From assembly GCF_000327385.1 (NCBI RefSeq), contig NW_008708401.1, positions 437,969 to 501,968 on the forward strand: DNA of 64,000 nucleotides. Reading direction: 5' to 3'. Below, one piece after another: positions 1 through 64,000 of the stretch (the first letter of the stretch is position 1; the number at the start of each line of letters is the position of its first letter). The notes beneath the pieces were generated by a model. It did not search any database. It saw nothing but the letters and a program-made list of their open reading frames with translations, and was not told the origin of the DNA. The position numbers and the translations under genes were made by a program. The stretch comes from Lottia gigantea (taxonomy: Eukaryota).

Positions 1-1848
1 GAAATTCATACTACTATACAGTTAGCTAACGTAACGATTCCCCGATTCAAAGCACTCTATGAGTCTTCAGAGCAAGCGAGCTCTCCATCGTCCGCTTCCT
101 TCAATGGGAGTACAGGAAAATCGGAAATCAGTTTCAGTCAACGCTCTTCTGAACCTCGAATATTAACACCGGATCGTTTAAGGATGCAAGAAGTGTTGAA
201 ATCGCCATCAAATACAAATAGTGAAGATCCAAACACCGAATCTGCTGGCCAGGATCCACTATTAACGCATGTCCCAGAAGCTTCTGATTCCCCATTTACA
301 CAGCGACAGAGATCACCCAGCAGAGCTTGTCCAGAAGTTTCACAATCCTGTCAACCAGCATTATCCAGAACAGCAGCACAGAGTAAACTTCAAAGAACTT
401 ACCCAAGCTTCACTCACAAAACAATCGTGGCTAATTCCCAAAGACGTAGCTGTGCAACCCCTGTACCATGGCTTACAGCAGAAGAAAATGAAAATTTAAG
501 AAAATCCAAAAACATAAACCAATGGAGTACTACTTTGGTACCATGGATCACCAATGTTCAAACTTCCGAGGGGGGACGAGAAACAGTCTCCCAATACCAT
601 GGTCGTTTCCAGTTGAAAGAACGTCAATACTCTCCAGAAAAATCTACTGAAAGTTTTGTAAGTATTGCAGATGAATTTGAAAATCGCCGTAGTTGCCTTG
701 GACCATTTCGCGTGTCCGAAAGAGGCGAATCATCTGACATGCACTCAGAAGAGCATCAACTTGCAAAGCAACAAACAACAAGAAGCGAAGATTCCAACTT
801 AGAAATATCATCCTTATATGATAAATCTGGGAGTCCGAAGCAATACACAGAGCTCACAAACGTCTCAAGATATAGAGCGTCCAGCGAAATCAGCGGGGCA
901 ATTGAAACGACCAATTTTACAGAGTTTGAATATCTTCAAGCAAACAAGACGTCTTCCACTGAATTATTTCATGGTTGCCCCGTTTCAAGGAACTACATGA
1001 TTGCTTTTGATGAGAATCTTCAAATGGCTGCAACTGTTTGGTCGGGTGGAATGGAGGAGGCGGATACTGAAGAACAGTCTGAAAGTGAGTTCATGTCCGA
1101 TGTAGAACCACAGTCAAGCTTTTCGCTTGAAGACGCACAGTCTTCTGGATCATTTAGCAGTGAAGTTAGTTCAGATGAGCCACATCGACCATCTTTTAAC
1201 CACAGTTATAACAGCGATGAACAACCGGCTGTAACCCGTCCAAGCCCTGCCAATATCCACCGTGATCGCGTTGGTACATCTTCAAGTGGTTACGAGCCAT
1301 TTCACATTTTCATGTCAGATGTAGAACCGCGATTAAGTTATTCACACAGCTCACAAGACACACATTCTTGTGGATCATTTAGCAGTGAGAATAGTTCAGG
1401 TGGGCCACATCGACCGTCTTGTTACAGCAATGAAGATAGCAATGAACAAACGGCTCTGTCGATCCAATGCTCATCCAACATATTAAGTGATCCGATTAGT
1501 AAATCTTTAAGTGGTTGCACCCCCTTTCACATTTACATTGGGCAAACAGCATTAATTCAAGCTCGGCCCATTACTCAATCTGCTGGGCAGAATTCCAAAT
1601 TAGCCCCGGTGGTAAATTCAAAAGATTACTTAGACAAGAATATATGTTGCTATTCTTATGGAGATGAACGAACCAAGATGGTACCGAAAGTTCCCCAACC
1701 AGTAAGAGCAGATAACCGATCACTGTACAACGTACAGAGCCCACCAGAGAGGAGAAATAACAGACTTTCGAAACATAAAACAAATCAAGTCTATCCAGGC
1801 TCAGCCAAATTATTACAAATCTGTAAGAAAGTAAAGAAAAGTAAATAA
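1..1848 (+). CDS. 3' terminal coding exon of a Ser-rich, acidic low-complexity protein. The 5' end is cut by the window edge. Stop is TAA at 1846-1848.
   Basis: The reading frame of ORF 184-1848 stays open back to nt 1, with no in-frame stop in 1-183, so the exon starts upstream of the window. Composition is Ser/Glu/Asp/Thr-rich. AATAAA at 1844-1849 overlaps the stop. No recognisable catalytic domain. Confidence 0.55.
   Translation, partial: EIHTTIQLANVTIPRFKALYESSEQASSPSSASFNGSTGKSEISFSQRSSEPRILTPDRLRMQEVLKSPSNTNSEDPNTESAGQDPLLTHVPEASDSPFTQRQRSPSRACPEVSQSCQPALSRTAAQSKLQRTYPSFTHKTIVANSQRRSCATPVPWLTAEENENLRKSKNINQWSTTLVPWITNVQTSEGGRETVSQYHGRFQLKERQYSPEKSTESFVSIADEFENRRSCLGPFRVSERGESSDMHSEEHQLAKQQTTRSEDSNLEISSLYDKSGSPKQYTELTNVSRYRASSEISGAIETTNFTEFEYLQANKTSSTELFHGCPVSRNYMIAFDENLQMAATVWSGGMEEADTEEQSESEFMSDVEPQSSFSLEDAQSSGSFSSEVSSDEPHRPSFNHSYNSDEQPAVTRPSPANIHRDRVGTSSSGYEPFHIFMSDVEPRLSYSHSSQDTHSCGSFSSENSSGGPHRPSCYSNEDSNEQTALSIQCSSNILSDPISKSLSGCTPFHIYIGQTALIQARPITQSAGQNSKLAPVVNSKDYLDKNICCYSYGDERTKMVPKVPQPVRADNRSLYNVQSPPERRNNRLSKHKTNQVYPGSAKLLQICKKVKKSK
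1084..1545 (+). repeat. In-frame tandem duplication of two roughly 228-bp (76-aa) units inside the Ser-rich CDS.
   Basis: Protein segments FMSDVEPQSSFSLEDAQSSGSFSSEVSSDEPHRPSF...GYEPFHIF and MSDVEPRLSYSHSSQDTHSCGSFSSENSSGGPHRPSC...GCTPFHIY are collinear, with shared anchors MSDVEP, GSFSSE, PHRPS and PFHI. Confidence 0.6.
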
Positions 1849-1849
1849 A
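1844..1849 (+). other. AATAAA polyadenylation signal overlapping the stop of the Ser-rich gene.
   Basis: Canonical hexamer aataaa spanning 1844-1849. Confidence 0.4.
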
Positions 1850-2741
1850 GAATATTGTTATATTGAAAGTATGTCCTGTTATTTCAAATAGGACAAATCC
1901 TATGCAAATATTACCTATTGCACATATGGTGTACTAATCAGTTTGATATTTCCGTTGACAATCGTAGCAGTCTAGAAAAACAGATATTAATATTTCAAAT
2001 TTTATTGGGCCCCATCCCCTCTAAGAATTCATTATCATTTCAGGGAAAGAACCCTTCTCACAAACCCCTTTGCCTTCCCCCTTTTACAATTCTATGGCCC
2101 CTACTCATCCCCACCCAATGAAGCGCCCCTGCCTCTCATAAACTCTCTTATCCACTGTCTCATAATTCATGGGTCATATTTTCTAACCATATCACAGTAT
2201 GACTATTTAAGAGATCTGGGTGAATTTTTAAGAAAATGTAAAATATTATTTCGGTTTTCCAGTTTCAGGAAACTCTCAAGTTTAACTATCTTTGCGTCCA
2301 CTAGGTTATTTCCCTCTTTATATATTTATAAATATAACCTTTGAAAATTAGGATAGGTACGGCTTCAGCCCCACCAGGCCCGTTGCCAGATTGTTCGGAG
2401 GGCCAGGTAATAATATATTCGGAGGGGCAATGGTGTATAGTGTTAAGGTGAAGTAATGAGATGCGTTGGTTAGCAAAATTTTTTTCAGGGGCGCAATTCA
2501 TTCATTTTTTCGGCATTACTCCCCCCCTCTTTTCCCCTGTAACTACTGGCCTTTGCCCCACAATTTAAACACTATGACATTGGAGAACACTGACATAGAA
2601 TAATGAGTCACTAGTTACAGTCATCAAGATAGAATTTATCAACCAACTGCTGAATAAATAATCTCTTTAATAAATTAATTTCTTTATTGAATATAATTAT
2701 AATAGAGGATTGTTAAAACCATATTATTTAATTACAACTGG

Positions 2742-2749
2742 GCTATAAA
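2742..2749 (+). promoter_or_regulatory. Candidate TATA box (tataaata) about 140 bp upstream of the proposed start codon of the VWA gene.
   Basis: TATAAATA motif located upstream of the ATG at 2886 that opens a signal-peptide exon. Position is the only evidence. Confidence 0.25.
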
Positions 2750-2885
2750 TACCTCTAGTTCTAAAATTATTTCAAACGGGAATTCTTAGTTCACTTGAGA
2801 ATTCTAGCCTTGACCAAATCTATACTGGAAAGAGTTTTTATAACTTCATATTTTGGTGGTTGGATCTCTATTATCTCATATCATC

Positions 2886-5800
2886 ATGTTTTATCAAATT
2901 TTGTTTCTTTTGGTTTCCTTAGCAACGTTTCAGGTAAGAGTTTATTTTATGCTCAAGCTTAATTTCTACCGTGAAAGTTCTTTCAGCATTCTGCGGAAAC
3001 TAATTTTATCATTTCGATAACAGTTGCAGAAATTTTCAGCGTTCAGAATATTTGTGCCCCTCTCCGACTTCACAATCTTTTACGTGTCGCAATTAAACTA
3101 TTTGATTGAAGAATGTCGTATTGAAAGATATTGATATTGGTCAAAAGTTTATTAGCTAATCGTAGTTATCATAATAATTTAAGTTGTGTTGTTTCTAATC
3201 GCAAGCACCCAATCTTGTATTTGAACGAATAATGAATCAGAGTTTTGTGGTCGGCATCCTCGCATGCAATTTCTATCAACATAATATATGTCTTTCAACG
3301 AATATTGCAACAGATTTGTGGTAGGCACCATGCGTAAAAATAGAGAAAATACAGGAAGTAAGTAGATATGATACTATTTGTTTTTTTCTTTCAGACCTTT
3401 CACGTGTCAGGTAAGTCACATATATATATATCAAATTTATTGGCATATTAACAATCTAGAATTATTAACAGAGTGTCATTATAGGCCTATGATCAATTTT
3501 CAACTCAAATGTACTCTACTTAAGCAAACTTGTAAAATATGATATTAATACAGATGTTTCTTGTGTTTAAGATACACAAACTCGGACATACTGTGTTTAA
3601 ATCCTACGATTGCATGACGACCCTAAAAGACGATGGTCATATTGTTGGTGGCTTAAGATGCCTACTGCTGCACCATACGTCTGTATACCCATGTACCTTA
3701 AAAAAAACTTGATAGAAATACTTGATATACGATGTATCAATTCTAATCTACGATATCTACGTTATTTACGATATTGGTATCTAAGCGGCTAAATGAAGGG
3801 CGTACACTGATGATCATATTGTAAGTCGCTAGAGATACCAACAGCCACACCAAACGTCTATATATCCCTGCACACATTAAATTTTGCTTTTCAGGAGCTC
3901 AAGTATGTGGTCGATCTGCAGATGTAGCTTTTGTCATTGATGCTTCCAGAAGTATCTACCCCCCGCACTTTAAAGATCAGTTAAATTTCATCAAGGACAT
4001 GGCTGATTCGTTCAATATTGGACCAGATCAAACCCAAATTGCAGCTGTAACATTCTCAGAAGGCTACCAAGAAGAATTTTTATTTAACACTTATAGCGAG
4101 AAGCCCTCAGTCATTCAGGCCATTAAGAACATAACATTCGCAATGGGAGGACGAACAGATACTGGAGAAGGTATCAAATTCGCCAGGAATGAAATCTTCG
4201 CGGCTAGGAACGGGGCTAGAGCCAATGTTCCACATATTATGATAGTCATCACTGACGGTAGATCTACGTATGGTGGGCTGACAGCCAGCGAAGCAGCTAA
4301 AGCTAGAAACGACGGAATCCTTATATTTGCCATTGGTGTTGGAGCAGCTGATGAGAATGAGCTGAACAACATCGCGTCCAAACCATCATCTGAATATGTC
4401 ACCAAAGTCACTGATTATACTAAATTGACTGGAATTCGAGAGAAGCTTGCTCTTCAAGCTTGTGAAGGTAGGTTGACGACTAACGGTTTCAGACATAAAC
4501 AGCACGTGAAGAAATAATTGAGACAATGAGGAGCTGCAGCTGAGGTAAAGCCAAGTAAACCATTCAAAACACTATTTTTGTCTTTCTATCTTTTATGCTT
4601 CACCTTTTAGCTTGATTTACGATGGATAGTTTAATTTGTTTGTGGTTCACTGCAATTCACTTCTGGTTGTGGAGCTCAGATCTTTTGGCGATGGACTTTT
4701 CTCAATTATATGTTCATATAAGTATTTGGTGTCAGGGTCTTGAGTTAAAAATACCCCATCCCCCATCCATGTTACCCACAATTCTTTTGTAAAGGATCTT
4801 TTGTTAGTTTATATGCTTTTTGTGGTAAAGGTTCTCTCTACTTCTTCATTTTGTATCACCTACTGTAGCTTTAACAACGACCCCTCTACCCACAACTACT
4901 ACAACTACCACCCCCGCACCGACTACTACCCCGGAGCCAGCCACAACAACAGAAGGTAAGGTTGGTTCTTCCAGTTCCTCGGTAACTATACATGGATATG
5001 ACTAGTTTATGACACTTGGCATCATACACGTAGAGGGACCTCACACGATAGCGATTACCAGATTCATAGGATTGCGAATTAGAATAGCGGTCATTAGTTT
5101 CGAACGCAACTCTCATTCAACTGATTTGTGAGTTGCGCTCGGAACTCATGACCTTTTTCATTATTCACAACCATACGCACCTGGTAATCGGTATGATGTG
5201 GAGGCACCTTTAGTTATCTATAATACAATGATGCAAAAGAAAGGGAATGGCCTTATGACACATAAAATTTTCTTGATGGTTTGGCGTGGGCCAACAAACG
5301 GAAATTATCTCCAAATTGTAAACAAAAGAGTTATATCAACTCCATATGTTGTAGACTCACTTCCATTTCTATTTCAGAAAAAATGCAGGGAGATCGACCC
5401 GATAAGGGTAAGTCATTATGTTCATCCTATTGTCTGGTCATTGAAATGATGGAATCGACGCCAGAGATGCCAAACAATAGTCACCCATCTTTCAGGGTAA
5501 AATCTACCCAATATTTGGCTTGCAGGCATTGAATATTCTTCTTAAAGGGATGGTGCGGCATTCTTTTTGACCAATCATACTTTACTCCCAGAAACGGGAA
5601 TATTTTAGCTAAGCCAATCAGTAATAGTGTTCACAGCTCACCGTCAGAATTTGAGCCTTCAAATCATGTGTGGCCAGAATTATCCGCGTTTGAATGTTGA
5701 AATGAAATAATAATGCTTCTGATTTTGTACAATATTTCTTTCATGTAGAATGTATTACTGGTAAAGATTCAGATGTTATTTTTGTGCTGGATGAATCCAG

Positions 5801-8207
5801 TAGTATTGATAACCGAGACTTTAAGAAGCAGTTGAAATTCGTCCAAGATGTCATCAAAATGTTTGATATTGGACCCAAAAAGACACAAATCGGTGTGGTA
5901 ACATTCAGCGATCTCCCCACCGTCGAGTTCTATCTTAATACTTATAAAAAGAAGAAGGATGTCTTGAAAGCAGTTGGCAGGGTCGTATATTCCGGTGGCA
6001 ACACATACACCAATCTGGCTCTAGAAACCGTCCGAGATAAACTACTGTCGCCACAAGCAGGTGCCCGTCCAGGTGTAGCTAAAATCATTGTAGTCATCAC
6101 CGATGGTGTGTCACGAATGCCTAAAAATACTGCAATGGTAGCTGAAGAAATCAAGAAACGTGGAGTTTATATGTTTGCTATTGGTAAGTGTTGTCTAGCG
6201 GCGAATGCACTGTTACACAGGCCTCGCGAAAATCAGTTTTATTTTCCAGCTAGATTAATGTTCTGCACTATAGTTTATTATAATGATTATAATTCTGATT
6301 CCCTAGTAATGTTAAAAAACAAATGATGAGGCATTTCGTTGAGTCTTGTTTCCATCGCACTAACATCTAAACGACTTAAGGGAGATCACTCGATTAATAA
6401 TCGTCGAATTTCTATCTTTATAGGTGTCGGTAAAGAATTCGACCAAGATGCCGAAGAACTTATTAACCTCGCCTCCTCTCCTAGTGAGAGTTTTGTTCAG
6501 ACTGTTAATGGTTATAATGCCTTGGGAACAATTAAGAATTTATTATCCATCAAAAAATGTAAAAGTAAGTATCATTATCAAGCAATTTCGTTGACAGAAA
6601 GTGGCTTAGAGTTTGATGGCTACGGAGATGTTGTGTTACGATTCGTTCAGATGTGTAATATAAATGGGTAATTATATATAAGGATATCTTGTAACTTTGG
6701 GTCATAGCTTAAATTAGCATTCTTACTGATTGTCGCGTTTCTAAGGCCTACTAAGTCGACTCAGGGCACAAAATTCTTGTACGTACCTGTAATTAGTAAG
6801 TGGAAATAGAAAATAGGAATTTTGCAAGTCACATGCCGAAGCAATTTTCTAATCGTCTTGACCAATTATATTGAATTATTCTCTATTATTCGACACTGTT
6901 AAAATAAGCCTGTAATTTAACATTAGAATTGTCTGACAACCATGTTGCCAGATAGTCTCCAAATTAGTTAATATTTTTAGAATTCCATATTATACTTCTA
7001 CGAATATAACGAAATATTTTTGTATTTTGTAGCTGGTGGTGGTGGAGGTGGAGGACAGGGTGATATTCACAGTAAGTATATTTTTACTCCGCATTTTTGA
7101 CAATCTTCTGAGGATGGGCTGTAACACAGTCGGTTAGAGTGTTGGAATCACAGGTCACAGGTTCTAATCTTGGTGAAAATTTAGTGAGCTTCCTTCATTG
7201 TTCCAGTAGACCCAGCTGTAAATGGGCGCAGATAATCTGGGAAAGATCAATGTTAAGAGGAAATTTTCCTCGTATCCTTGATTATTTTTTCCTTTTTTTC
7301 TTCCGTTTTTTCTTTCCCTATAATTTCTCACATGGATAAAACACTATTTATGATTTTAATTTTACTTTCATTTTATTATTTCAGCATCTTGTGGAAGTAG
7401 GTCACCAGCAGATGTCATGTTCGTTACTGATTTCAGTCAAGCTTCATCTCCAGGCGTTGCAAAATCTTTGAGAGTCATTGGAAATATTGCCAAAGGTTTG
7501 GATGTCGGGAGAGATAAGGTCCATGTTGGTTTGGTATCAAGTGACTGTCCCGAGGTCGGCGACGTTAACCCACTTCAATATTACGATGGCACCGGCTTCG
7601 CCATGGCTCTTACATCTAAAGAATCAGAGACACGGGTTTCCAAATTACTGTTCAGAGCAAGAGACGAATACTTAACTAGTAAATACGGTAGGAAGAATGC
7701 TAAACGAGTTATCGTTCTTTACACCAATGGACCAATTTCAGATTTTAGAGAAACGGCAAGGGAGATAATGCGAGCTGAACATCGTATCAATGATGTGAGA
7801 GTAATAGTGGTATCTGGTAGTCCAGCAGGTGATAAAGATGCTGCTAGACTACCATCTAGAATGAAGATTCTGTCCAAAGATCTTGGCAATGGACAATCAC
7901 TATTAAACCTAGTTTGTCAAGGTGAGTGTGCCAAGTTTTATGTTCTATATCTTCAACTACAAAAGAGAGAATCGTTGCGCTGCAACACATATGTTAAATC
8001 ATTTTGTTAGGATAATTTCATACACTTTTAGTAGAGAACATGATATTAAACCTCACTTACCCCAATAGAAAACTCGATTCTTGAATAACGACATACAACA
8101 GTCTTTATGTCGCCCACAATATTTAAGTTTAAGAAAATTCTGAATTAAAAAGTGTTTTTTTTAATAATATAAATGTTCTGTTCTCCGTTTCAGCTATCAG
8201 AGTTTAG
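2886..8207 (+). CDS. Secreted multi-VWA-domain protein, about 629 aa. Nine proposed exons: 2886-2933 (signal peptide MFYQILFLLVSLATFQ), 3395-3410 (16-nt micro-exon), 3895-4467 (VWA 1), 4869-4955 (Thr/Pro-rich linker), 5749-6183 plus 6424-6564 (VWA 2), 7033-7071 (poly-Gly micro-exon), 7385-7921 (divergent VWA 3), 8194-8207 (AIRV then stop).
   Basis: VWA hallmarks are read directly: DVAFVIDASRSI...ITDGRS...FAIGVG in exon 3 and DVIFVLDESSSI...VITDGVS...FAIGVG in exons 5-6. The third domain has a degenerate MIDAS (DFSQAS). All junctions are GT-AG. Every internal exon is phase 1-1 and the CDS totals 1890 nt, divisible by 3. AATAAA lies downstream near 8588. The 5' micro-exons and the tiny terminal exon are the least certain parts. 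Confidence 0.6.
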
Positions 8208-10310
8208 AAGAAAACATCCAAGAAAATCTACAATGTCGGCATTTTAAAGATCTCTCCTTCAGCAACACAAATACAGAGGAAATCTAGATTAGCAATGCAT
8301 TTATGGCAAAACAAACATCAGTCGCAGAAAATTGGCGAAATATAGATTCGAATCTAAGGGAAATCTACATAAACAGCATAATCTGCAACTTGGGGACATT
8401 TTTTCCATCATATTTATTGTAAAAGTTAAACAACTTTATAGATTTATGCCTCGTTTTCTCTTTTCCATGGACATATTTCATATGATATTAATGACGTTAT
8501 AAACTGTAATTGTATGAGGTATACAGAAGTAGAAGCCTGAGATAACTTATTTGTAAAGCCAAATCTTCTTCACTTATTTATTTTCTAATAAAGATTCTAG
8601 ATTTATGTTTTGTAAACTATTGTAGATATAATTTATTTTATTTATTTATTGTAAATATTTCTATCTTTGTGTAATAAAATTGTTGGATTTAGTTTTTATA
8701 TTTATAAACTGTGCTATCCCAGGGAAATGGTGAGGCTGACATGGAACACGCGTCTAGTCGTTCAGGTGAGACAATTGCCTGGAGATCCGACTCCAGGTGT
8801 TACAGACTAAAGATTCTTGACAGCCGGAGACTTTCTACTGGTACAGAAAAATAGGACATAAACTCCCGTTTATTAGAGAACGTTCTATCATAAAAAAAAT
8901 ATCCGCGAATTCGCTGGGCAATTAATGTGATAAGCAAGCCCATTGAGATTTGCGCAGACAAAACTAAGGTTTGGGTTCCATACGAAGATAAGGACAAGTG
9001 AATTAAGCACAATTATGTAGGTATCTTTGAGGCTATTTGAAAAACAGCTAAAATTATCATGATCATTCGGGTCCCGCATGACCTTTGTACCGGCCGAAGT
9101 ATTTTCTCAAGATTGTTTTGTTTACATTCTTAAAACAATAATATAGCAAAACCGTAAACAAAGTAGTGACCTTCATTAGACCAAAATGGGCGAAAATTAG
9201 CATTAACCCATTCTTATCAGATTCAAATTGGTTAAAGTGATAGATCAACATCATACACTGTGACAAAACTTTTCTATTTTTCACTATAGATATATGAAAT
9301 AAATTCTATGACGTTTTTCAGTCTACCCTTTGTCTACTTATGTTCTATTTCTACGTAATCATTAGACATGATTAAACAATACCGACCAGATAAAGGTATT
9401 TATGATGGAACAGCGTTTCTATTGTTGACTTTGCGAGAAAATTGACAACAGAACCCTGGTAGAACAGGGAACGAAAATCTACAATGGTAGACATTTTGGA
9501 AAATTTACATTGGTAGAACTTTAGAAAAGCTTTAGGAAAATCTACATTTGGAGAAGTTTAGGAAAATCCCACATAGATATAACATTAAGAAACCTTTAAG
9601 GAAATCTACATTGGTTGGTAGAACTGCAGAATTTCAACGGGAGTCTATTCATATTCAGTCTACTTTGTTCTATTTTTTTTTTAAATATAAAACAATAATT
9701 CTACATATAATTGAGAAAGGTCAGCTCGTTAGGTTAATAATTAGATGGCTTCTACCCTTTAATGCCTCGTGTGAAAACCTGTCAAAAATAATATCTACCC
9801 CAAAGGCATCATTTAATAGAAAGTCAAATGGTGATTTTACTTGTGTAAATTTATTAATTTTCCTAAATTTAAATCATGATTGGCGACCAGGTAGGCTATA
9901 AGATGACGTCAGTTGATTGATGGGTTTTAGATTCGAATGCGAGTATAAATTAACTGGTACAAAGAAAAAAAGCATTGACTCCAAAAACAAGGTAAGATCA
10001 ACATCTTCATATATTCATGCATTTTTATCTCATACTGCATCTCATCAAGCAATTTATCTATAGTAGGCTACAATTTCTATCAGAAGTTCGATTTTGTTTG
10101 ATGTCACGACTGACGACAGTAGTTTTTTGAAACAGAATGCATCGACATTCTGGTTGTTCTGACTGCATTTTTTTTAGCTATTCAGTGCTCATGCATCATC
10201 CAAGATAGTTTCCAGTCAACGAATTCCTCGAAGGATGTAAATGTTAAATAGTCCAGATCGATTTCTTACTTTTTAAATCTCGATCTTTTCTAAATATAAT
10301 CGCTTTTAGA

Positions 10311-10360
10311 TTAATTCTATTCTATTCTATTCTATTCTATTCTATTCTATTCTATTCTAC
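10311..10360 (+). repeat. (ATTCT)10 pentanucleotide microsatellite immediately upstream of the signal-peptide exon of the Met-rich gene.
   Basis: Ten perfect attct units, read directly from the sequence. Confidence 0.9.
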
Positions 10361-10362
10361 AG

Positions 10363-13300
10363 ATGAGAGGACTGGTATTTCTGTTAATTTCGCTGTGTGT
10401 CGTGGCTACATTGGCCCGGCCCAATTTAAAAAAGAGGCAGACATTAAAAGGTAATTGAATATTACTTTCAAAATTAGGTGCTTTCTGTATTAGCAATTGA
10501 AATACTTTCACCATAACGCTATCTGTATAGGAACCTAGAAATTATTGTATGCGTATTCAATATCATTTAATCCCAATGTGATATTTCACTGATTTGTCAT
10601 GTTCCTTTTGAGATTTTGACGACTGTATAGTATTAAAAGTAAATTCTTGAAACCATGTCCAAAAACTGCATTGCATTTGAAATCCAATGTAGTAATGATG
10701 TTTGTGAGTTTATGTGTGTGTGTGTCGCTAGTACGACAGGGCAAGCTCACACTTCTGGCTTCTGATACATCTGATGCCATTCCACGCTTAGGTTTGTCAA
10801 CTGGAGAGATTGAGAGAGATAGTCCACAGAGCCGCCGTGTGTCACCATGCGTTTTGGTATTGTGAACTTGGCAGTCTTTTCCAACAGAGAGTATACATAA
10901 CTCTGCTAGTGGAAAAGACTGTCCGTGAGGTTTGTTACTAGTAATTTTGTGGACAAGACTATCGCCATTCTGCGACTAATTGGGTTTAAAATCTAAGATC
11001 CAAGATCCTAGTCCAAAAAACGTAATTTAATTTCTGCTCAGCTTTTCCAATGATGAAATATAATTGTCATACGGTTTGCCACACAAAAAGTTTTCTGAAC
11101 ACGAACACGATTTGGTGTTTCTTCTAAAAGAAATGATTATAATTGTACTAAAAAGTGTGAAATTACATGTATATAGTTCAGTAAGAGGAGTGTACAGTAA
11201 TTAATCTCTGTTAATTATAATTAATTGATGATGTAAGATCGTGACCCCTCGGGGGCCATATCACCAATTATTGACCTCTACATACTTCTTTACTGAAATG
11301 TTGTATAACATAAAAAAATAACATCATTGCCATGTGCACACTCTAAAAGGAATATTAAATAGGCGAATTAGTGACCTTAACATACTTCTTTTCACTCATT
11401 TGCATTGCGATGTGCAGTCTATAAAAATGAATACATGTACATGTATTGAGTAAATGAATGTTTCCGGAAGTTACACAAGTTCTGAATCGGTAAAAGTGTG
11501 TTCTTTAGCAACAGATAGATGTGATAAACATCATAAAACGTTGCTAAAAGAACATGTACATTAACTACAAGCTATAATGTCTCTCTGAAAGGGTCCTTGA
11601 GTAGACAACCCCAGTGATATCAGGTGTTTCAGAAGGGTGCGTTTGCTATACCCTGCTAGCGAATACACTATAATAGTACAGGCTATAGATATATACATGT
11701 GAATAATTATCTCCTCCACCCAGACGACAATTTTGTCTGCAGTTATGATATTGATCATACTATAATTGAGACAAATATAAATTGTATTTTAGCAAATATC
11801 ATCTTCTTGGGTCAAGGTTTGTCAAATTTTTTAAAGAGAAGAATATTTTATCAGATTAGCAATAAGGTGCCACGGGGCAGTGGAAATGGTTTTATTGCTG
11901 AAGAGCACAAGGCTGTTTTGAAACAATTTAGGCAAATTGGCCTTTGATTGACCCCGTGTTGACCGTGTATTGTTTATTATGAATATTGATTTGTTGTTTA
12001 TTGATGATCATCTATAGTAAACAACTTAAAACATTCTACACACAAATCTAATTGGTCAACAAAAAATTGTTTGGGATTTCTAAAAAAATTAAATGTCTGA
12101 AAATGTTTAAAACATTTTAATTGGTGACATTGATTTACAGAAATGTTCAAGATTCCTAAAAAATTTTTAAAATGTCTCATCTTTTGTTTCAATCAAGTGG
12201 TTGGGTGGGGAACGGATGAGGATGTATCTTGTTCCCGAGTGAGAACTTGATTGAAAATAAATTTTCACCCAAACCTACACTCCTTTCTCATCCGATTGTA
12301 CTACATGTTTTCCATAGATCTACTTGTTCAGATTTCTACGGGGATGTTAACTCGACTCGCCCCCTCACCCAGTCATTCATTGAAACGCCACTGGTTAAAA
12401 ATTTTACTTTGTTATCTACATCAGAGAGTCTTTTCTTTTGATAATTTGAGTAAATCACAGGGCTGTGTATTCATATGCTTGATTTTTTTTTATTTCAGAC
12501 ATTGTAAAGAATGAATTAAACAGACAAAAAAGACAAATAACCAGAGGTAAGGAAATGGATTACGTCAAATCAACTAATTAAAATGACATTAGTAAACATA
12601 ACAATTCATAGAAGTAGTTGCTACTCAGAGAGTTACATGTCGGAGATTGCATTAGGACGTATATTTTGGATCCTAAAGGGGCACCTAGTTCGTGCGGTAC
12701 CTGTTTACTGCTTCTACCAATGGTAGTATATATCGAAAATGTTTGATTCTTTCAGGAAACTTAGTCAAAGATGGATCTGAAAGCGCAACTCAAAATGGTA
12801 AGTACAAGCTGAGTTCCAGAAAAGGATCAGGGTAACGGCATAGACAGGAGGATGAGGTATCTTCTCTCCAAAACATATGCAACCCTTGATTGAGGGAGAA
12901 GAATGGTTAAACAGCTTTGGCGGGAGGGTAGGGAATCGCCTCTTCAAAACGTCTGAAATTAGATTTCTTTATTGAGGGGAGGGGCTGATTAAATGACGAT
13001 GGTGATGATGATTCTTAACCAATTCCTTTAAAACGACACAGATTATTTGAGTAACTACTTTTATCATATTGTAAATTTCATTTTAGATTTTCTTCCAACA
13101 TCAGAAGCCGTTGTTTCTCCCCCAGAAACTGAGATTAAGCCAACGAGCGACCCTTCTGCATCTTCAGCTACTGACGTTCCTTTCCATTTACCACAGGACT
13201 TCAATGGTGAACCACTACATGCTGTAGAAAAGTCTCCATCGAACGTTTCTCCTTTCGGTCGAATGCCAGGACCCATGGGTGGTATGCCAGGACCAATGGG

Positions 13301-15541
13301 CGGTATGCCAGGACCAATGTCAGGACCAATGGGCGGTATGCCAGGACCAATGGGCGGTATGCCAGGACCAACGGGCGGTATGCCAGGACCAATGTCAGGA
13401 CCAATAGGCGGTATGCCAGGACCAATGTCGGGACCTATGGGTGGTATGCCAGGACCTATGGGTGGTATGCCAGGACCAATGGGGGGTATGCAAGGACCAA
13501 TGGGAGGTATGCCAGGACCAATGGGCGGTATGCCAGGACCAATGGGCGGTATGCCAGTACCAATGTCGGGACCAATGGGTGGTATGCCAGGACCAATGGG
13601 TGGTATGCCAGGACCAATGGGCGGTATGCCAGGACCAATGGTAGGTATGCCAGGACCAATGGGTGCAATGCCAGCTGATTTCCAAGGACCAAGTGGAGCA
13701 TGGGTTGATCAATCGAAATTGATGGCACAACAACAGCAAGGTGATATGGGTAAGATTCAGAATGCACAGAAGAAATTCATGGAGAAACTGATTGCTATTA
13801 AAACTGGAACCAATGGAACTGCTAATATGACTGACGAGGAGAAGAAGCAATTCTTGATGAAGGATGGTATGCCTCCAATGACACCTTGTAAGTATTAAAA
13901 ATTTCGTAGAAAGAAATAAGCAGCGTATCGTGAACTTTTATTATTGGAAGCATGTTCTCACTTTTTGTGGTATGCAGGCAGATGTGTCAGTTAGATTGTG
14001 TATTGATTTATTTGTGCTGTTTTCTATTTTCAGTACAATCAGCAGTAGGACATGAAGCTGAAATGGTTCAAAACATGATAGAATACGAGAAACAGTTAGC
14101 TCAAGCCCAACATTCTGTATTAAAACAATTTTATACTGACGTTTTAACAAGGTAGGTTCGCCATGCACACTCTTATGGAAAACCTGATGCCACTCTTTTA
14201 TTTTTGACAGTGGTTTCAAACTTAATCAACTACATATATTATCAGATGCATCAGCCGATCTGTTTTTAAAAGGGTCCATCTCCTCTCCTGTGCTTTGAAT
14301 ATTATTTTGAATAAAAATATTATGATTAAAAATAAATGTTAATGTTCCAAGCACGTTAAGGTAGCTTATTGGAGAAGTCAGATCGGCAGCTTATTGTATT
14401 ATATAATTGACTTATAAAAGAGCTTCGTATGCTGACAATACGCGTTTCGGATACAAGACCCTCACTAAGACAGAAGTTTTAGGAATAGAAGTTTAATTTC
14501 AATACAGGACAACAGATACCAGTAAAAATCTCTTATCCGTGCACAGTCCAAAAACAAAATAATGTACATAGTATTACAGAAAAAGTCAAAAGCAGTGGCT
14601 CAACATTATGTGTGGGGACCGTGGACATTTTTTTTTGCAACATATGCTGCTCTCCTATATTCTGAGACCTTGGTCGGGTTCTGGCATAAGTTGTGAACCA
14701 ATTTATATCATTGTTTGTTATCCTTTAGGATACTTACTTCGGTATATGTTTCTTTGATTTTGTATTTTGTTTTTGTGGTGGGAACGCATGGACTCGGTTC
14801 AACCAGTCCCTATGGCAGCTGATTCACTGGTCACAAGGAAAGGAACAACTGCAAAATTTCTTATTTTACACTTTGATACTTTTCAGCCGTGTTGTGAATA
14901 CCATGTTCAGAAAACGACTGGGAGAAGAGCTCCAAACATTGAAAGCTTTAAATAAAGAAGTTGAAAAAGCTCGAAAATCCATGGCTGGTATGCCTCAACA
15001 ACAACTTGGAGTAGTTCCTCAGCCAATGATGGGTGGTCCTCAAGGAATAATGATGGACCCAAGAGCTGCTATGATGAGTCAATCAGCTATGATGGGCCAA
15101 ATGGATCCTAGAGCCGCTATGATGGGCAAAATGGATCCTAGAGCCGCTATGATGGGCCTAATGGATCCTAGAGCAGCTATGATGGGCCAAATGGATCCAA
15201 GAGCTGCTATGATAAGTCAACCACCTATGATGGGCCAAATGGATCCAAGAGCGGCTATGATGGGCCCAATGGATCCAAGAGCAGCTATGATGGGCCAAAT
15301 GAACCCAAGAGCAGCTATGATGGGCCCAATGGATCCTAGAGCAGCTATGATGGGCCACATGGGCCCGAGAACAGCTATGATGAACCAGGGATCACCAATG
15401 ACAGACCCAAGAGCAGCAATGCAAATGCAAATGCAAAGAAGACAAATGATGGCTAGACGTCGAATGATGGCTGGAAAACAGGGAGCACCAGGTTCAGCAT
15501 TTGTTGGTAGATTAAGACAAACTATGCAGAAGAAGAAATAA
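10363..15541 (+). CDS. Secreted Met/Gly/Pro-rich tandem-repeat protein, about 553 aa in the minimal model. Exons: 10363-10450 (signal peptide MRGLVFLLISLCVVATLA, then RPNLKKRQTLK), [possible cassette micro-exons 12499-12546 and 12756-12797], 13087-13887 (about 24 MPGPMGG/MPGPMSGP heptad/octad repeats), 14034-14151 (helical spacer), 14887-15541 (about 11 MDPRAAMMG nonamer repeats, R/M-rich C-terminus, stop 15539-15541).
   Basis: The ORF-track entries 13047-13898 and 14873-15541 are joined by phase-consistent GT-AG junctions. The donors are phase 1 at 10450, phase 1 at 13887 and phase 2 at 14151; the matching acceptors are at 13085-13086, 14032-14033 and 14885-14886. Total CDS is 1662 nt. The signal-peptide exon has a classic h-region and ends in donor AAAG|GTAATT. 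AATAAA at 15817-15822. The exon 1 assignment rests on phase, since it is the only upstream signal-peptide exon with a phase-1 donor. Confidence 0.55.
13262..13675 (+). repeat. Coding tandem repeat array with a 21/24-nt period: ggtatgccaggaccaatgggc [tca gga cca atg].
   Basis: About 24 near-identical units encoding MPGPMGG / MPGPMSGPMGG. The periodicity creates long spurious ORFs on the opposite strand. Confidence 0.9.
15040..15365 (+). repeat. Coding tandem repeat array with a 27-nt period encoding MDPRAAMMG(Q/K/L/P), about 11 copies.
   Basis: Direct repeats atggatcc[ta]agagc[ac]gctatgatgggc[cac]aa read in the sequence. Confidence 0.9.
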
Positions 15542-15816
15542 GCAGGATAATAAATCATTAACTTTTAAAAGTCCCATTATGTTTAGCATCAAAGATGTAT
15601 GGAAATAATATTCTTATATTTATTAACTTATTGTTTTGGCATGCTCATACAGACAGTGTTGAACAACACAGCGAAAGAGAGAGCAAAACCTTTCAAATAT
15701 GACCATTAGAAACATTAGATATGAATATCAATTCCATGTATTTTGTAATCCTGTATCTATTGTCGTGTTATGTACTAGTAAGTCTTTAAAATACTCCATT
15801 GAATTTCTTTTGATAA

Positions 15817-15822
15817 AATAAA
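15817..15822 (+). other. AATAAA polyadenylation signal for the Met-rich repeat gene.
   Basis: Canonical hexamer about 275 nt downstream of the stop codon. Confidence 0.4.
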
Positions 15823-16231
15823 GATAAATAAATATCTCCCCAAAGAATACAAAGCCCCGTTCATTCCAATGTCGGCATGTGGATTCTGTTCGTAAGCATG
15901 CAAGCGTATTAATTGTTTAGTGTACGTATATGTTTCGTGTTTCAAAGTAATAGGACTCCTTATGATACTAATGCGTCCATGTCAGACGTACCAATTTAAG
16001 TAAATTTTTTGTGTGTTTTATTAGTTTGTTCTGATCAAAAACTGTAAACATTAGTATATTTATAGTCAACTGTAGCAATGTATTGTATATTAATCATATA
16101 ATTAAAATGTTATATGCACAATTTCGTTTCCAGTTACTTAAATCGCCATGTTTTTCGCTCCTTTATGTCATCTTATTGGGTTCAAATTTTGAAATGTGGC
16201 ATATTTTCGAGATGCCATTTTTTCAAAAGAA

Positions 16232-40795: not shown

Positions 40796-43700
40796 ATGAG
40801 GCTATTTAAAGAACTAGAGGTAGTGATATTAGTGGTAGGTGTGATCCTGTCTACCAGCCACTGTCAAGATATTTTACAACAGACATGTAACGATCCTAAT
40901 GGCTATGCTACAATTGAACCAGATGCTGATGCTATCATTGGTGGTGTATTGTGTGCTGATGGTGAGTTAAAAGCCATTAAAAGCCATGGTTCACCATTTT
41001 CTGGGTTGATTTGGGTCTTGAATATATATAAATATTTTTCAGAACGAGAATCATAATCCTGTCAAATATACCTCAAACTGGAAATTTTACTTTTTATTTC
41101 TATAAATCTTTCTATGACAGGTCATGTTTCTCTACAATTTGTCGTTTGCTTTTGCTTAAATCCATTTAGTTTTCCAACACCAACCAAATAAATGGTTTTG
41201 CTGTTCAAACATTAACGGCTAAAACTTTCAGAAAAGATAAGGGACCAATTTCACTAAAGTTAGTATAGTTTTCAATAGTTATAATAACTTATCCTAAAAA
41301 TCAGACTGTCCCTTTAAATATTATAATATAATCATCATTACAGACATGCAGGCATATGAAGCTTTACGTCTGGCCATTGAGGTCATCAATAAAGAAAATG
41401 TTAAAATTAATGGAGAATTATTAAATACTAGCTATGTACCTGGTATCAAATTAGGTGAGTTCATTTCTGTCAAATTTAATCTTGATATAAACTTCACTAG
41501 GATAAAATCCACTTTTTACGGCAAATTACTATAAATTCCTCTTCATTTGTGGCCAGTGGTATATTTTTTTTTTGAATCAGTAGTTCCCAACCTATTTCAG
41601 CCCTCACACCCCCGGAGCAATCACATGGAACTTTCACACCCCAAAAATTCAGCATGTGATGATGTGAGGTGCGCTCTCTCTCAACTCAAAATAAATTCTT
41701 CACCTACACCAGTTGGCCACACCCCTGACACCCTAATCCCACACCCCCAGGGGGTGAAAACACTCCAGACTGGGAACCAGGGATCTACATATATGTAAAA
41801 ATTGAATTCCTAAGCATCCTAAAATAGTAAATTATATGTAGGATAGCATATATTGATATGCTTAGACATTTATTTGAGTTTTCAATTTTTAATGAATTCA
41901 TTCATTCATGCTTTTTTGATTCATTCATGTATTCATTCATTGACTAGGTATGAGAGTAAAGAATACTTGTGGTGATAGTGAAGCTGCTATAGAAGGAGCT
42001 ACAACTTTATTTCCACAGTTATCTGCTCCTCAATCAACTTGTAATCAGACTCAGAAAGTGATCCTAGGTGAGTGATCTTTAAAGATGGGTTTCCTTATTT
42101 TTTAGTGTCAAATTAAGCAAACTATTTTATTAATTGGTGTTTCTAATAAATTATCATGTATCTTTTATCAAATCATTATTTTCTTATTGCATATAATTAA
42201 GAGTTTTATTCAATCATAAATGTTTATGTATATACAGTCGGGATAAACATAAAGGGATCCCATCTTTAATTATCTAATAAGAAATACAGTAAGCTGTCCC
42301 TGATTTGACAATATGACTAAATTTGAAATTAATTCTTTTGAAATTACTTGAGGTTTTCCAGTCAAAATCAATAGTCTACTATTTGTAATAGATCACTGAT
42401 GATTGAACTACTAAAATGGAGGACCACTTGTCTTTGTTTAGATTTTGGTGTAATTGGTAAAGTTCCAATGGGAGGACTATAAAGCTGTTTCTATTAGCCC
42501 ACTTTGGTGCAGTAGGATGTAAATCTCTATTTCATTTCATAACATAAATTTCATGGTATACTACTTCTTAGTTTTAATGTACATAACGTTTCAAAAATTT
42601 ACATTGGCATCATTAGCAACATATTCATGTAGATTTTTGAAATGCTGTGTCCAGAAAAGCTAAGGAGTAGTATACCATTAGATTATGTTTGTAAAATTTG
42701 ATGTGATCTCTATTTGATTTCATTTAGAATACATATACTTTGTTTAAAATCAGGTGTGATTGGTACAAGTTCCAGTGGTACAACAATGACTGTGTCAGAT
42801 TACCTGGAGAAGTATAATATTCCCATCATATCATACCAAGCTACAGCACCCATTCTGAGTAATAAGCTCAACTACCCAAACTTTATGAGAACTGTACCTC
42901 CAGATGGCCCACTCATGGATGTAAGTATTTAAAGGAGCAGCAGTCTGATTGTTTGGGTTAATCCAACTATTACGACTACCAACCACTATCTAGTTTGAAA
43001 TGTCTGCAGCTGTTGGAAGCGAAAGTTAACTTGTCATCTACCTATTTAACTTACTTAAGTTAGGTAGAAGTTAGGTGCTCAAATTAATGAAAACTAATGA
43101 TTTTTGGTTTGTGGTGGAAATTTGATGTACTGATTTTAGTTAGATAAAAGCCAAGTTGTTAGAATATATCAAGAAATCTGAATACGTATTAATTTTGAAT
43201 GTTATTGTCTTGACTCTAGGTCATTATCAAAGTATTAAACAGAATTAAATGGGACCATATCATCATTGTTTACGAGGATTCAGTGTTTGGTCGATCATCT
43301 TTCGCAGAAATTTTACCTCGATTATCAGATGCTGGTATTTGTTTGAAATCAGCTATACGTCATGACGAGACAGACACGGCAGCTGGTACATTAGATAGAG
43401 CTTTATTGACCAACACAACTGGTGTGTTATATTTAGGCGGTGTGGACCTGGCAGATCAGCTTCTTCAACAAGGAGAAACTCACCCAGGAGCTGGTAAACT
43501 TCAGTGGATTTTCACCGATAGTATAAGCCTCGATAAAAGTTTCCAAACCAGAAAATATCAACGTGGAATCATCAGTATTTTGCCGAGCTCCAGAAACATT
43601 GTGGAATTTGAAGATCATTGGATGAGAATTGAGGAGAATTCTCCATCTGCAGAAAATCCATGGTTCCAGAAATGGTTTATGGATCAGAATGAATGCCTTT

Positions 43701-63792: not shown

Positions 63793-64000
63793 CTGAAATT
63801 GAGAATACCGGACAGTTTAATCAATACACATTCAACTGGCTCTTCAGCTAATCTTGATATCTGGAATAGTCAGAATTATAATTGAACAAGCCCTCTTGGT
63901 GGAGTTTGTCCTGGCGAATGCTATTGTAAATAGAATTTGATTTCAGGGTGAATTGTAGAGTCATTTTATCAATCCTTTTGTCGATCTTTCTTCCCTTGAA

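What the first reader, a model, noticed from the sequence alone, without database searches (positions are those of the whole stretch)
2886..8207. Triple-VWA secreted protein built entirely from phase-1 exons, with mucin-like and poly-Gly linker micro-exons
All internal exons (VWA domains, a TTTPLPTTTTTTTPAPTTTPEPATTTE linker, a TGGGGGGGQGDIH exon) begin and end in phase 1. This is the classic exon-shuffling-compatible layout of extracellular matrix proteins. VWA 3 has lost the MIDAS serines (DFSQAS), so it probably does not bind metal. The gene lies directly upstream of the Met-rich repeat gene on the same strand. Both encode secreted low-complexity proteins, so this could be a small matrix or adhesive secretome cluster. 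The link to biomineralisation is speculation.
Basis: partly seen in the sequence, partly recalled or inferred. Interest (0 to 1): 0.5.

Follow-up and report, generated by a model that had tools for sequence, protein, structure and literature searches.

The report
Secreted three-VWA matrix protein gene (mollusc)
This is a real, intact mollusc gene for a secreted protein built from three von Willebrand A domains, an ordinary member of the collagen-VI/matrilin-like matrix family whose exon layout has stayed the same from limpets to a clam.

Summary
The gene exists at the stated coordinates. The corrected product is 639 aa: signal peptide, VWA1, Thr/Pro-rich linker, VWA2, Gly-rich linker, VWA3.

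Pfam scores all three VWA domains above threshold (173, 163 and 36 bits). Orthologues in the limpet Patella caerulea (about 60% identity) and the protobranch bivalve Solemya velum have the same ten exons, including the 16-nt exon inside the signal peptide. In all three species, introns 2-9 are phase 1.

VWA3 has a decayed metal site (DxSxA, TNG in place of TDG). It also carries an unpaired cysteine that occurs only in domains with decayed metal sites, 29 of 345 VWA domains examined.

The protein has no EGF, coiled-coil, collagen or chitin-binding domain. It is therefore a VWA-only matrix protein, not a matrilin, collagen VI or Pif/BMSP.

Nothing supports the proposed secretome cluster or biomineralisation link. 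The Met-rich neighbour is an orphan gene. It is absent from the 10 kb flanks of the Patella orthologue. Test peptides from both proteins were absent from the searchable text of the Lottia shell-proteome supplements.

Verdict: real, well conserved and ordinary.

The parts
2744..2749 (+). TATAAA box, 142 bp upstream of the start codon (putative core promoter)
   Evidence: Pattern scan. Sequence context GGGCTATAAATACC seen. Its function is inferred.
2886..2933 (+). Exon 1: start codon and first 16 residues of the signal peptide (MFYQILFLLVSLATFQ). Ends in phase 0.
   Evidence: Patella has a 48-nt exon and Solemya a 24-nt exon at the same position.
3395..3410 (+). Exon 2: 16-nt micro-exon (TFHVS+G) that completes the signal peptide. 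Phase 0 to 1.
   Evidence: This exon is exactly 16 nt in Patella caerulea and in Solemya velum.
3895..4467 (+). Exon 3: complete VWA1, phase 1-1, bracketed by C26 and C211. MIDAS is intact (DASRS, T109, D142).
   Evidence: Pfam VWA 173.1 bits over profile positions 1-173 of 174. Alignment columns.
4869..4955 (+). Exon 4: Thr/Pro-rich mucin-like linker (ALTTTPLPTTTTTTTPAPTTTPEPATTTE), phase 1-1.
   Evidence: The equivalent Thr-rich exon is 99 nt in Patella and 72 nt in Solemya. O-glycosylation is inferred from composition.
5378..5407 (+).
   Evidence: splice sites; alignment to Patella EEKMQGDKDTER. Orthologous exons of 33 nt and 36 nt.
5749..6183 (+). Exon 6: first three quarters of VWA2 (C253 to ...YMFAI), phase 1-1. 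MIDAS is intact (DESSS, T337, D370).
   Evidence: VWA2 scores 162.6 bits. The equivalent exon is 432 nt in both Patella and Solemya.
6424..6564 (+). Exon 7: last quarter of VWA2 (GVGKEF...SIKKCK, C442), phase 1-1.
   Evidence: Equivalent exons of 138 nt and 135 nt.
7033..7071 (+). Exon 8: 39-nt linker micro-exon TGGGGGGGQGDIH, phase 1-1. The Gly run is a GGT/GGA codon repeat.
   Evidence: An exon sits at the same position in Patella (24 nt) and Solemya (36 nt), but neither has poly-Gly.
7385..7921 (+). Exon 9: complete VWA3, phase 1-1. Terminal pair C459/C634, degenerate MIDAS (D472-F-S474-Q-A476; N571), and an unpaired C511 in the loop after beta2.
   Evidence: Pfam VWA 35.7 bits, profile positions 1-135 of 174. 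AlphaFold2 model with mean pLDDT 87.3 and a full alpha/beta pattern. Foldseek matches VWF A1/A2/A3, integrin I domains and collagen VI N5 at probability 1.00. Residue table.
8194..8207 (+). Exon 10: last 4 residues (AIRV) and stop codon TAG at 8205-8207.
   Evidence: Patella has a 20-nt and Solemya an 8-nt terminal exon.
8587..8592 (+). First AATAAA poly(A) signal, 380 nt after the stop codon. A second lies at 8673-8678.
   Evidence: Pattern scan. Use of either signal is inferred.

Best explanation
The region holds one complete ten-exon gene (2886-8207, + strand). It encodes a 639-aa secreted, VWA-only extracellular matrix protein.

Shown:
- The exon model and its conservation in two other mollusc species.
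- Three VWA domains.
- Intact MIDAS residues in VWA1 and VWA2, and a degenerate MIDAS in VWA3.
- A cysteine pair bracketing each domain, plus a seventh cysteine (C511) with no possible partner in the chain.
- The absence of EGF, coiled-coil, collagen and chitin-binding modules.

Inferred mechanism:
- The 22-residue signal peptide (cleavage predicted after VSG) sends the protein into the secretory pathway.
- Each VWA domain is stapled by a disulfide between its N- and C-terminal cysteines, as in VWF A1/A3 and collagen VI domains.
- The Thr/Pro linker is O-glycosylated and holds VWA1 away from VWA2.
- VWA1 and VWA2 bind acidic residues of matrix ligands, with collagen the most likely by analogy, through a divalent cation at the MIDAS.
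- VWA3 binds without metal. Its conserved unpaired Cys near the former metal face may form an intermolecular disulfide that couples the protein to itself or to a partner.

The net function would be a multivalent cross-linker or adaptor of connective-tissue or secreted matrix. The tissue and the ligand are unknown.
For: Gene model.

Exon-for-exon conservation (exon lengths in nt):
- window: 48/16/573/87/30/435/141/39/537/14
- Patella caerulea: 48/16/573/99/33/432/138/24/543/20
- Solemya velum: 24/16/585/72/36/432/135/36/561/8
Introns 2-9 are phase 1 in all three.

Other evidence:
- Best protein hit is Patella caerulea P0001: 58% identity by BLASTP at 100% coverage, E = 1e-230, and 391 of 650 columns identical in a global alignment. 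It is followed by dozens of molluscan 600-660-aa three-VWA proteins that sources name 'cartilage matrix protein-like' or 'collagen alpha(VI)-like'.
- Pfam finds only VWA-type families.
- The closest solved structures by sequence are collagen VI alpha3 (E = 1e-140) and mussel PTMP1 4cn8 (E = 5e-51).
- Invariant C26, C211 and C442, and the MIDAS columns of VWA1/2, across 29 family members.
- Seven Cys in the mature protein here, in Patella and in most of the aligned family.
- VWA3 fold.
- Among 345 VWA domains from 121 proteins, the loop Cys occurs in 29. All 29 keep at most 3 of 5 MIDAS residues. None of the 275 domains with 4-5 MIDAS residues has it.
- Gene limits: no other VWA exon in the window, a TATA box at 2744, and poly(A) signals at 8587 and 8673.
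Against: - There is no transcript, proteomic or expression evidence for this species. The source organism could not be identified, because exact look-ups failed.
- The signal peptide was judged by eye (hydrophobic core, V at -3 and G at -1), not by a predictor.
- Ligand binding, glycosylation and disulfide pairing all rest on analogy.
- The loop that carries C511 has only moderate model confidence (pLDDT about 67), and I could not inspect coordinates. Its surface exposure is therefore not shown.
- The association between the loop Cys and the decayed MIDAS is probably one inherited event in one clade, not 29 independent ones.
Confidence: 0.8

Rival explanations
1. It is a shell-matrix (biomineralisation) protein of the Pif/BMSP kind. 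It would act with the neighbouring Met-rich protein as a small mantle-expressed cluster.
For: - VWA domains are common in mollusc shell matrix proteins (PMC11291548).
- A 'matrilin-like' protein was found in the Lymnaea shell proteome and is mantle-specific (PMC7299971).
- Lottia shells contain Met-rich proteins, MRP_LOTGI and GMP_LOTGI (PMC4094399).
- The neighbour has a plausible signal-peptide exon at 10363-10450.
Against: - No chitin-binding (CBM_14) or laminin-G domain at E <= 0.1.
- The one hit in the top 120 that carries CBM_14 is far weaker than the three-VWA family: P0056 at E = 7e-76 against 1e-110 to 1e-230.
- Shimizu et al. report that VWA sequences outside the Pif/BMSP clade included no shell-related proteins, and that the VWA-only Lottia PifG members were not found in shell.
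- Test peptides of both proteins were absent from the Lottia shell-proteome supplements. One file was truncated when stored, and the species of the window is unproven.
- A peptide identified for Lottia MRP, CVLNDCGACSQEFYIGK, is not in the neighbour gene model.
- The neighbour is not next to the Patella orthologue.
Confidence: 0.08
2. It is a component of pedal or adhesive mucus. It would act as a VWA cross-linker of the glue, like the 'matrilin-like' proteins of slug and semislug adhesive secretions.
For: - Matrilin-like VWA proteins are reported among adhesive components of the semislug Megaustenia, with higher expression in foot than in mantle (PMC11178922).
- The slug-glue study cited in PMC7333891 names VWA domains as central.
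- Mussel PTMP1, a two-VWA collagen-binding byssal protein, is the second-closest solved relative (PMC4754843).
- The protein has a mucin-like linker.
Against: - The annotated adhesive proteins of Patella vulgata mucus carry vWF type D, EGF, lectin and related domains. 'VWA' does not occur in the main text of that paper.
- The gene family is conserved in animals with very different or no adhesive secretions, including cephalopods, a protobranch bivalve and nemerteans. That fits a general matrix role better.
Confidence: 0.1
3. It is not a functional gene. It would be a chance concatenation of VWA-like ORFs, a pseudogene, or part of a larger multi-VWA (collagen-VI-like) gene.
For: There is no transcript evidence. 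The protein is not in the 15-billion-sequence collection. VWA3 scores weakly in Pfam (35.7 bits).
Against: - The 1920-nt ORF is uninterrupted across ten exons, with consensus splice sites.
- The exon structure is identical in two other species that diverged long ago.
- Domain cores are conserved and linkers diverge.
- No further VWA exon exists within 64 kb.
- The upstream Ser-rich ORF, open at the window start, ends at 1845.
- The stop codon lies in the same tiny last exon as in the orthologues.
Confidence: 0.02

Closest known systems
Molluscan three-VWA proteins annotated 'cartilage matrix protein-like' or 'collagen alpha-6(VI)-like' (e.g. Patella caerulea SNE40_013700, Solemya velum ScPMuIL_006019)
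   Same: Same length class (600-660 aa). Same order of parts: signal peptide, VWA, Thr-rich linker, VWA, short linker, then a degenerate VWA with an extra Cys. The ten-exon, phase-1 gene structure is the same in the two loci I examined.
   Different: Only lineage-specific detail differs, such as the poly-Gly run in exon 8 and a shorter Thr run. None of these proteins appears to have been studied experimentally, and their names are automatic.
Vertebrate matrilins (matrilin-1, also called cartilage matrix protein)
   Same: Both have secreted VWA domains with an intact MIDAS. About 31-32% identity over two domains. Module boundaries fall on phase-1 introns, computed here for turtle matrilin-1. 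Both have an adaptor or cross-linker role in matrix; the matrilin role is established knowledge.
   Different: The window protein has no EGF module and no C-terminal coiled-coil oligomerisation domain (Pfam). It has three VWA domains rather than one or two, a mucin-like linker, and a degenerate third domain. The intron inside VWA2 lies about 6 residues away from the matrilin-1 position.
Collagen VI alpha3-alpha6 N-terminal VWA arrays
   Same: This is the best solved-structure match by sequence (9han, E = 1e-140). Both have tandem VWA modules. From my own knowledge of COL6A3: each module is a single symmetric exon, which allows exon skipping.
   Different: The window protein has no collagen triple-helical region (no Collagen Pfam hit) and is far shorter, so it cannot form collagen VI microfibrils.
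Mussel proximal thread matrix protein 1 (PTMP1, PDB 4cn8)
   Same: A molluscan, secreted, VWA-only protein. Second-best solved relative (E = 5e-51). Known to bind mussel and mammalian collagens (PMC4754843).
   Different: PTMP1 has two VWA domains and belongs to the byssus, which limpets lack. Its alignment here covers the canonical domains, not the degenerate Cys-bearing VWA3.
Pif/BMSP shell matrix proteins
   Same: Both have VWA domain(s) behind a signal peptide in a mollusc.
   Different: Most Pif/BMSP members have chitin-binding CBM_14 and often laminin-G domains and are found in shell (PMC11291548). This protein has neither domain, and its test peptides were not found in the Lottia shell proteome files searched.

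Membership tests
VWA domain superfamily (Pfam PF00092) | Profile score above the curated cut-off (23.8 bits) | tested here: met
   173.1, 162.6 and 35.7 bits for the three domains.
VWA domain superfamily (Pfam PF00092) | Alpha/beta Rossmann-like fold | tested here: met
   Tested only for the weakest domain, VWA3. AlphaFold2 mean pLDDT 87.3, with alternating strands and helices. Foldseek probability 1.00 to VWF A domains, integrin I domains and collagen VI N5, TM 0.6-0.68. The beta3 strand is not formed in the model.
Metal-binding (MIDAS) VWA domains | DxSxS, plus Thr, plus Asp at the end of beta4 | tested here: met
   VWA1 has D37/S39/S41, T109 and D142. VWA2 has D266/S268/S270, T337 and D370. 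These columns are invariant or nearly invariant in 29 relatives.
Metal-binding (MIDAS) VWA domains | The same five residues in VWA3 | tested here: not met
   VWA3 has D472, S474, A476, T539 and N571, so 3 of 5 are kept. Patella keeps 2 of 5. The subfamily ranges from 1 to 3 of 5.
Matrilins | EGF-like module(s) between or after the VWA domains | tested here: not met
   No EGF family in the Pfam scan at E <= 0.1. Vertebrate matrilin hits do carry such modules.
Matrilins | C-terminal coiled-coil oligomerisation domain (PF10393) | tested here: not met
   No hit. The protein ends 5 residues after the last Cys of VWA3.
Collagen VI | Gly-X-Y triple-helical domain | tested here: not met
   No Collagen (PF01391) hit, and the 639-aa sequence has no Gly-X-Y run.
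Pif/BMSP shell matrix family | Chitin-binding CBM_14 (and laminin-G) downstream of the VWA domain(s); present in 76% of members | tested here: not met
   No CBM_14 or laminin-G hit. The gene ends at 8207, followed by poly(A) signals.
Pif/BMSP shell matrix family | Placement of the VWA domains inside the Pif/BMSP clade in a phylogeny (criterion of Shimizu et al. 2024) | not tested
The VWA-only 'PifG' subfamily of Lottia therefore cannot be excluded.
Pif/BMSP shell matrix family | Presence in the shell proteome | tested here: inconclusive
   Three tryptic peptides of the protein were not found in the supplements of PMC4094399. One file was truncated, and the window's species is unknown.
Molluscan three-VWA orthogroup ('cartilage matrix protein-like') | Architecture: signal peptide, VWA, Thr-rich linker, VWA, then a degenerate VWA with the loop Cys | tested here: met
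   Alignments A1 and A2.
Molluscan three-VWA orthogroup ('cartilage matrix protein-like') | Ten-exon structure with a 16-nt second exon and phase-1 introns 2-9 | tested here: met
   Window, Patella caerulea, Solemya velum.

The most novel reading that the evidence does not exclude
The C-terminal VWA domain defines a subtype I have not seen described, spread across molluscs and nemerteans. In it the metal site has decayed and a cysteine has appeared in the loop after beta2, next to the former MIDAS face. This cysteine has no partner within the chain. It could form an intermolecular disulfide, so these VWA-only proteins would multimerise or graft covalently onto matrix partners. That would do the job a coiled-coil does in vertebrate matrilins.
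Probability: 0.25. Interest if true: 0.4.

Novelty: new member of a known kind. Interest (0 to 1): 0.2.

Why it matters
The finding matters mainly as annotation. It gives a corrected ten-exon model for a conserved mollusc matrix gene. It also shows that symmetric phase 1-1 micro-exons can be missed without breaking the reading frame.

The exon structure, including a 16-nt exon inside the signal peptide, is unchanged between limpets and a protobranch bivalve. That makes a tidy textbook case of a domain-per-exon, exon-shuffling layout.

The only lead that goes beyond routine is the subfamily-wide link between a decayed metal site and an unpaired cysteine in the third domain. If that cysteine makes intermolecular bonds, it would explain how VWA-only matrix proteins without coiled-coils assemble. 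Nothing here bears on a long-standing open question.

Tried and rejected
- **Met-rich neighbour as a CstF-64 orthologue.** I tested this because its MDPRAAMMG repeats resemble MEARA repeats. A tblastn with a human CSTF2 sequence written from memory found no RRM, hinge or C-terminal domain in the window. Rejected.
- **Homology search of the Met-rich protein.** It returned only low-complexity hits such as Hsp70 GGMP tails. Pfam found nothing.
- **Full-length structure prediction.** Only the single-exon VWA3 was folded.
- **Database search with VWA3 alone.** It returned nothing, not even the Patella orthologue, so the word pre-filter failed. I recovered the subfamily distribution by running hmmsearch locally over the 120 hits.
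- **Exact look-ups to identify the source genome.** Three proteins were tried: the 639-aa model, the 629-aa model and the 959-aa single-exon ORF. None is in the collection. The species is unidentified. A non-Patella patellogastropod such as Lottia is only an inference from the roughly 60% identity to Patella.
- **Biomphalaria homologue locus.** Not on record.
- **tRNA, Rfam and repeat scans of the region.** No tRNA or Rfam match in 1-16000 and no repeat in 2000-9000.
- **Limpet adhesive-mucus paper.** It reports vWF type D domains, not VWA.
- **Lottia shell proteome supplements.** None of our test peptides was found.
- **Turtle matrilin-1 spliced alignment.** The full-length alignment failed with GT/GC-AG rules. 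It worked for residues 1-472. The last intron is probably the AT-AC intron that I recall from matrilin genes.

Full report
**Observation**

The window is eukaryotic DNA with 31-41% G+C and obvious GT-AG introns. Exons 2886-2933, 3395-3410, 3895-4467, 4869-4955, 5749-6183, 6424-6564, 7033-7071, 7385-7921 and 8194-8207 each have a polypyrimidine-AG acceptor and a GT donor. Together they give an uninterrupted 629-aa ORF.

Intron 1 is phase 0. The 16-nt exon 2 moves the frame to phase 1, and every later intron is phase 1.

**Correction to the model**

The best database relative is a 641-aa Patella caerulea protein (P0001, E = 1e-230, 100% coverage). It has an extra peptide, EEKMQGDKDTER, between the Thr-rich linker and VWA2.

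The window encodes the matching peptide EKMQGDRPDK in a 30-nt exon at 5378-5407, with the borders tttctatttcag| and |gtaagt. The corrected product has 639 aa and shares 391 of 650 aligned columns with the Patella protein.

**Conservation of gene structure**

I fetched the Patella locus (L001) and the locus of a 634-aa homologue from the protobranch bivalve Solemya velum (L002). I then threaded each protein through its DNA with an exact spliced aligner. Exon lengths in nt are:

| Species | Exons 1-10 |
|---|---|
| Window | 48/16/573/87/30/435/141/39/537/14 |
| Patella caerulea | 48/16/573/99/33/432/138/24/543/20 |
| Solemya velum | 24/16/585/72/36/432/135/36/561/8 |

The three genes correspond exon for exon:
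- a 16-nt exon inside the signal peptide;
- one exon for VWA1;
- a Thr-rich linker exon;
- a 30-36-nt acidic micro-exon;
- VWA2 split at FAI|GVG;
- a 24-39-nt linker micro-exon;
- one exon for VWA3;
- a tiny terminal exon.

Introns 2-9 are phase 1 in all three species. By chance, at least 8 of 9 introns in phase 1 has a probability of about 1e-4 to 1e-3. The conservation makes the micro-exons credible without cDNA.

The poly-Gly run is not conserved. Patella has STSKDQKDILT and Solemya has VKVVEKPSGDIA in that exon. It is a local GGT/GGA codon expansion.

**Gene limits**

A tblastn of the protein against all 64 kb finds no VWA exon outside 2886-8207. A TATAAA box lies 142 bp upstream of the ATG, and AATAAA signals lie 380 and 466 nt after the stop. 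An unrelated Ser-rich ORF that is open at the window start ends at 1845.

**What the protein is**

Pfam finds three VWA domains at 173.1, 162.6 and 35.7 bits against a cut-off of 23.8. It finds nothing else of substance: no EGF, coiled-coil, collagen, chitin-binding or laminin-G domain.

The N-terminus, MFYQILFLLVSLATFQTFHVSG|AQ, has the form of a signal peptide. I judged this by eye from the hydrophobic core and the V at -3 and G at -1.

The mature protein is about 66.7 kDa with pI 8.6, one NxS/T site and seven cysteines. Six of the cysteines bracket the three domains: C26/C211, C253/C442 and C459/C634. Several of these columns are invariant in 29 relatives. This is the pattern of the terminal disulfide staple known from VWF A1/A3 and collagen VI domains (established knowledge).

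VWA1 and VWA2 keep all five MIDAS residues.

**VWA3**

By alignment it is D472-F-S474-Q-A476, with T539 at the Thr position and N571 in place of the beta4 Asp. It therefore keeps three of five MIDAS residues. Patella keeps two, and the subfamily keeps one to three.

The single-exon domain was folded with a 20-sequence alignment. The model has mean pLDDT 87.3 and the full strand/helix alternation, apart from a poorly defined beta2-beta3 region. Foldseek matches VWF A2/A1/A3, integrin I domains and collagen VI N5 at probability 1.00. VWA3 is thus a complete VWA fold with a decayed metal site.

The decay does not imply loss of function. From established knowledge, VWF A1 and A3 bind GPIb and collagen without a MIDAS metal.

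The seventh cysteine, C511 (…VSSDCPEV…), lies three residues after beta2 in VWA3. It has no possible partner in the chain.

I built an HMM from the family's VWA3 block and aligned all 345 VWA domains found in the 120 hits plus the window protein. A Cys in this loop occurs in 29 domains. All 29 keep at most three MIDAS residues. None of the 275 domains with four or five MIDAS residues has it.

In the proteins whose domain order I checked, the domain with this Cys is the last one. Carriers come from gastropods and bivalves, a protein sourced to the cephalopod Argonauta, and two nemerteans. This is most simply one old innovation inherited by a clade, so the count is not 29 independent events. Whether the Cys forms an intermolecular disulfide is untested. 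I give that reading a probability of about 0.25.

**Comparison with known families**

By sequence the nearest solved structures are collagen VI alpha3 (E = 1e-140) and mussel PTMP1 (E = 5e-51). PTMP1 is a two-VWA byssal protein that binds mussel and mammalian collagens (PMC4754843).

Vertebrate matrilins align at 30-32% identity over two domains. The window protein lacks their EGF and coiled-coil modules, so it is not a matrilin. It has no triple helix, so it is not collagen VI. It has no chitin-binding domain, so it does not fit the usual Pif/BMSP architecture.

The phase-1 layout is the classic one. In turtle matrilin-1 I computed:
- a signal-peptide exon, phase 0 to 1;
- VWA1 in two exons, 1 to 0 and 0 to 1;
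- an EGF exon, 1-1;
- VWA2 in two 1-1 exons.

The intron inside the mollusc VWA2 lies about six residues from the matrilin-1 position, so it is not obviously the same intron.

**The neighbour and the 'cluster'**

The Met-rich gene lies on the same strand. I could splice exons 12499-12546, 12756-12797, 13087-13887, 14034-14151 and 14887-15541 into a 553-aa partial ORF. It holds two repeat arrays, (MPGPMGG)n and (MDPRAAMMGQ)n.

A candidate first exon at 10363-10450 encodes a good signal peptide, MRGLVFLLISLCVVATLA, and ends in the required phase 1. Secretion is therefore plausible but unproven.

The gene has no Pfam domain and no real homologue among 5.8 billion proteins. It is not CstF-64. No Met-rich ORF or similarity to it was found within 10 kb either side of the Patella orthologue.

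The shell VWA proteins discussed for Lottia are BMSP/Pif-like (PMC3374290; PMC4094399). Peptides from the VWA protein and from the neighbour were not found in the searchable supplements. The two genes are adjacent, and I found nothing further linking them.

**Function**

Published context shows that gastropod 'matrilin-like' VWA proteins turn up both in shell proteomes (Lymnaea, PMC7299971) and in adhesive secretions (Megaustenia, PMC11178922). The limpet adhesive proteome instead features vWF type D domains (PMC7333891).

This orthogroup is conserved across molluscs with very different lifestyles. The most economical reading is a general extracellular matrix adaptor. Two metal-dependent VWA domains would bind matrix ligands, a glycosylated spacer would separate them, and a metal-independent C-terminal VWA might couple covalently to a partner. 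The domain facts are shown. Ligands, glycosylation, disulfide pairing and tissue are all inferred.

**Verdict**

The gene model needed one more exon. The functional speculation about a secretome or biomineralisation cluster is unsupported. This is a new member of a known kind and of low general interest. The one modest lead is the Cys-bearing pseudo-MIDAS domain.

The source species could not be identified. The roughly 60% identity to Patella suggests another patellogastropod, but that is inference.

Noticed in passing
window 10363-15541 (+): Orphan Met-rich gene with two different tandem peptide arrays: about 30 copies of MPGPMGG-like heptads in exon 13087-13887, and about 11 copies of MDPRAAMMGQ in exon 14887-15541. 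It has a candidate signal-peptide exon at 10363-10450. It has no Pfam domain and no homologue beyond low-complexity matches such as Hsp70 GGMP tails.
   Followed up: partly
window 43220-54572 (+) and 62950-63816 (-): Class C GPCR locus. Several ANF_receptor (Venus-flytrap) ORFs lie in a row (43220-44254, 46584-47981, 51211-52887), followed by a 7tm_3 ORF (53298-54572). A second 7tm_3 ORF lies on the minus strand. These could be tandem receptor genes or one receptor with repeated ligand-binding modules.
   Followed up: no
window 20233-23109 (+): A 959-aa uninterrupted ORF with only weak, sub-threshold TPR matches. It is not in the protein collection by exact look-up.
   Followed up: no
window 1-1845 (+): A 615-aa Ser-rich ORF that is open at the window start and has no Pfam hit. 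It is presumably the large last exon of the upstream gene, and it bounds the VWA gene on its 5' side.
   Followed up: no
window 55026-55610 (+): A Gly/Ser/His-rich 195-aa ORF with (HGS)-type repeats and no Pfam hit.
   Followed up: no
P0032 (Patella caerulea SNE40_005423, 543 aa): A Patella paralogue in which VWA2 is replaced by a long Thr/Pro repeat and a Met/Asn/Gly-rich stretch. It keeps VWA1 and a degenerate VWA3 (DFAQAD). This may be an example of module loss or swap made possible by the symmetric exons.
   Followed up: no
L003 (turtle matrilin-1 locus), last intron near 44424/46443: My GT/GC-AG spliced aligner could not cross the last intron of matrilin-1. The exon end is followed by ...TCATTG|acaaga / ATATCC. 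This fits the AT-AC (U12-type) intron that I recall from matrilin genes.
   Followed up: no
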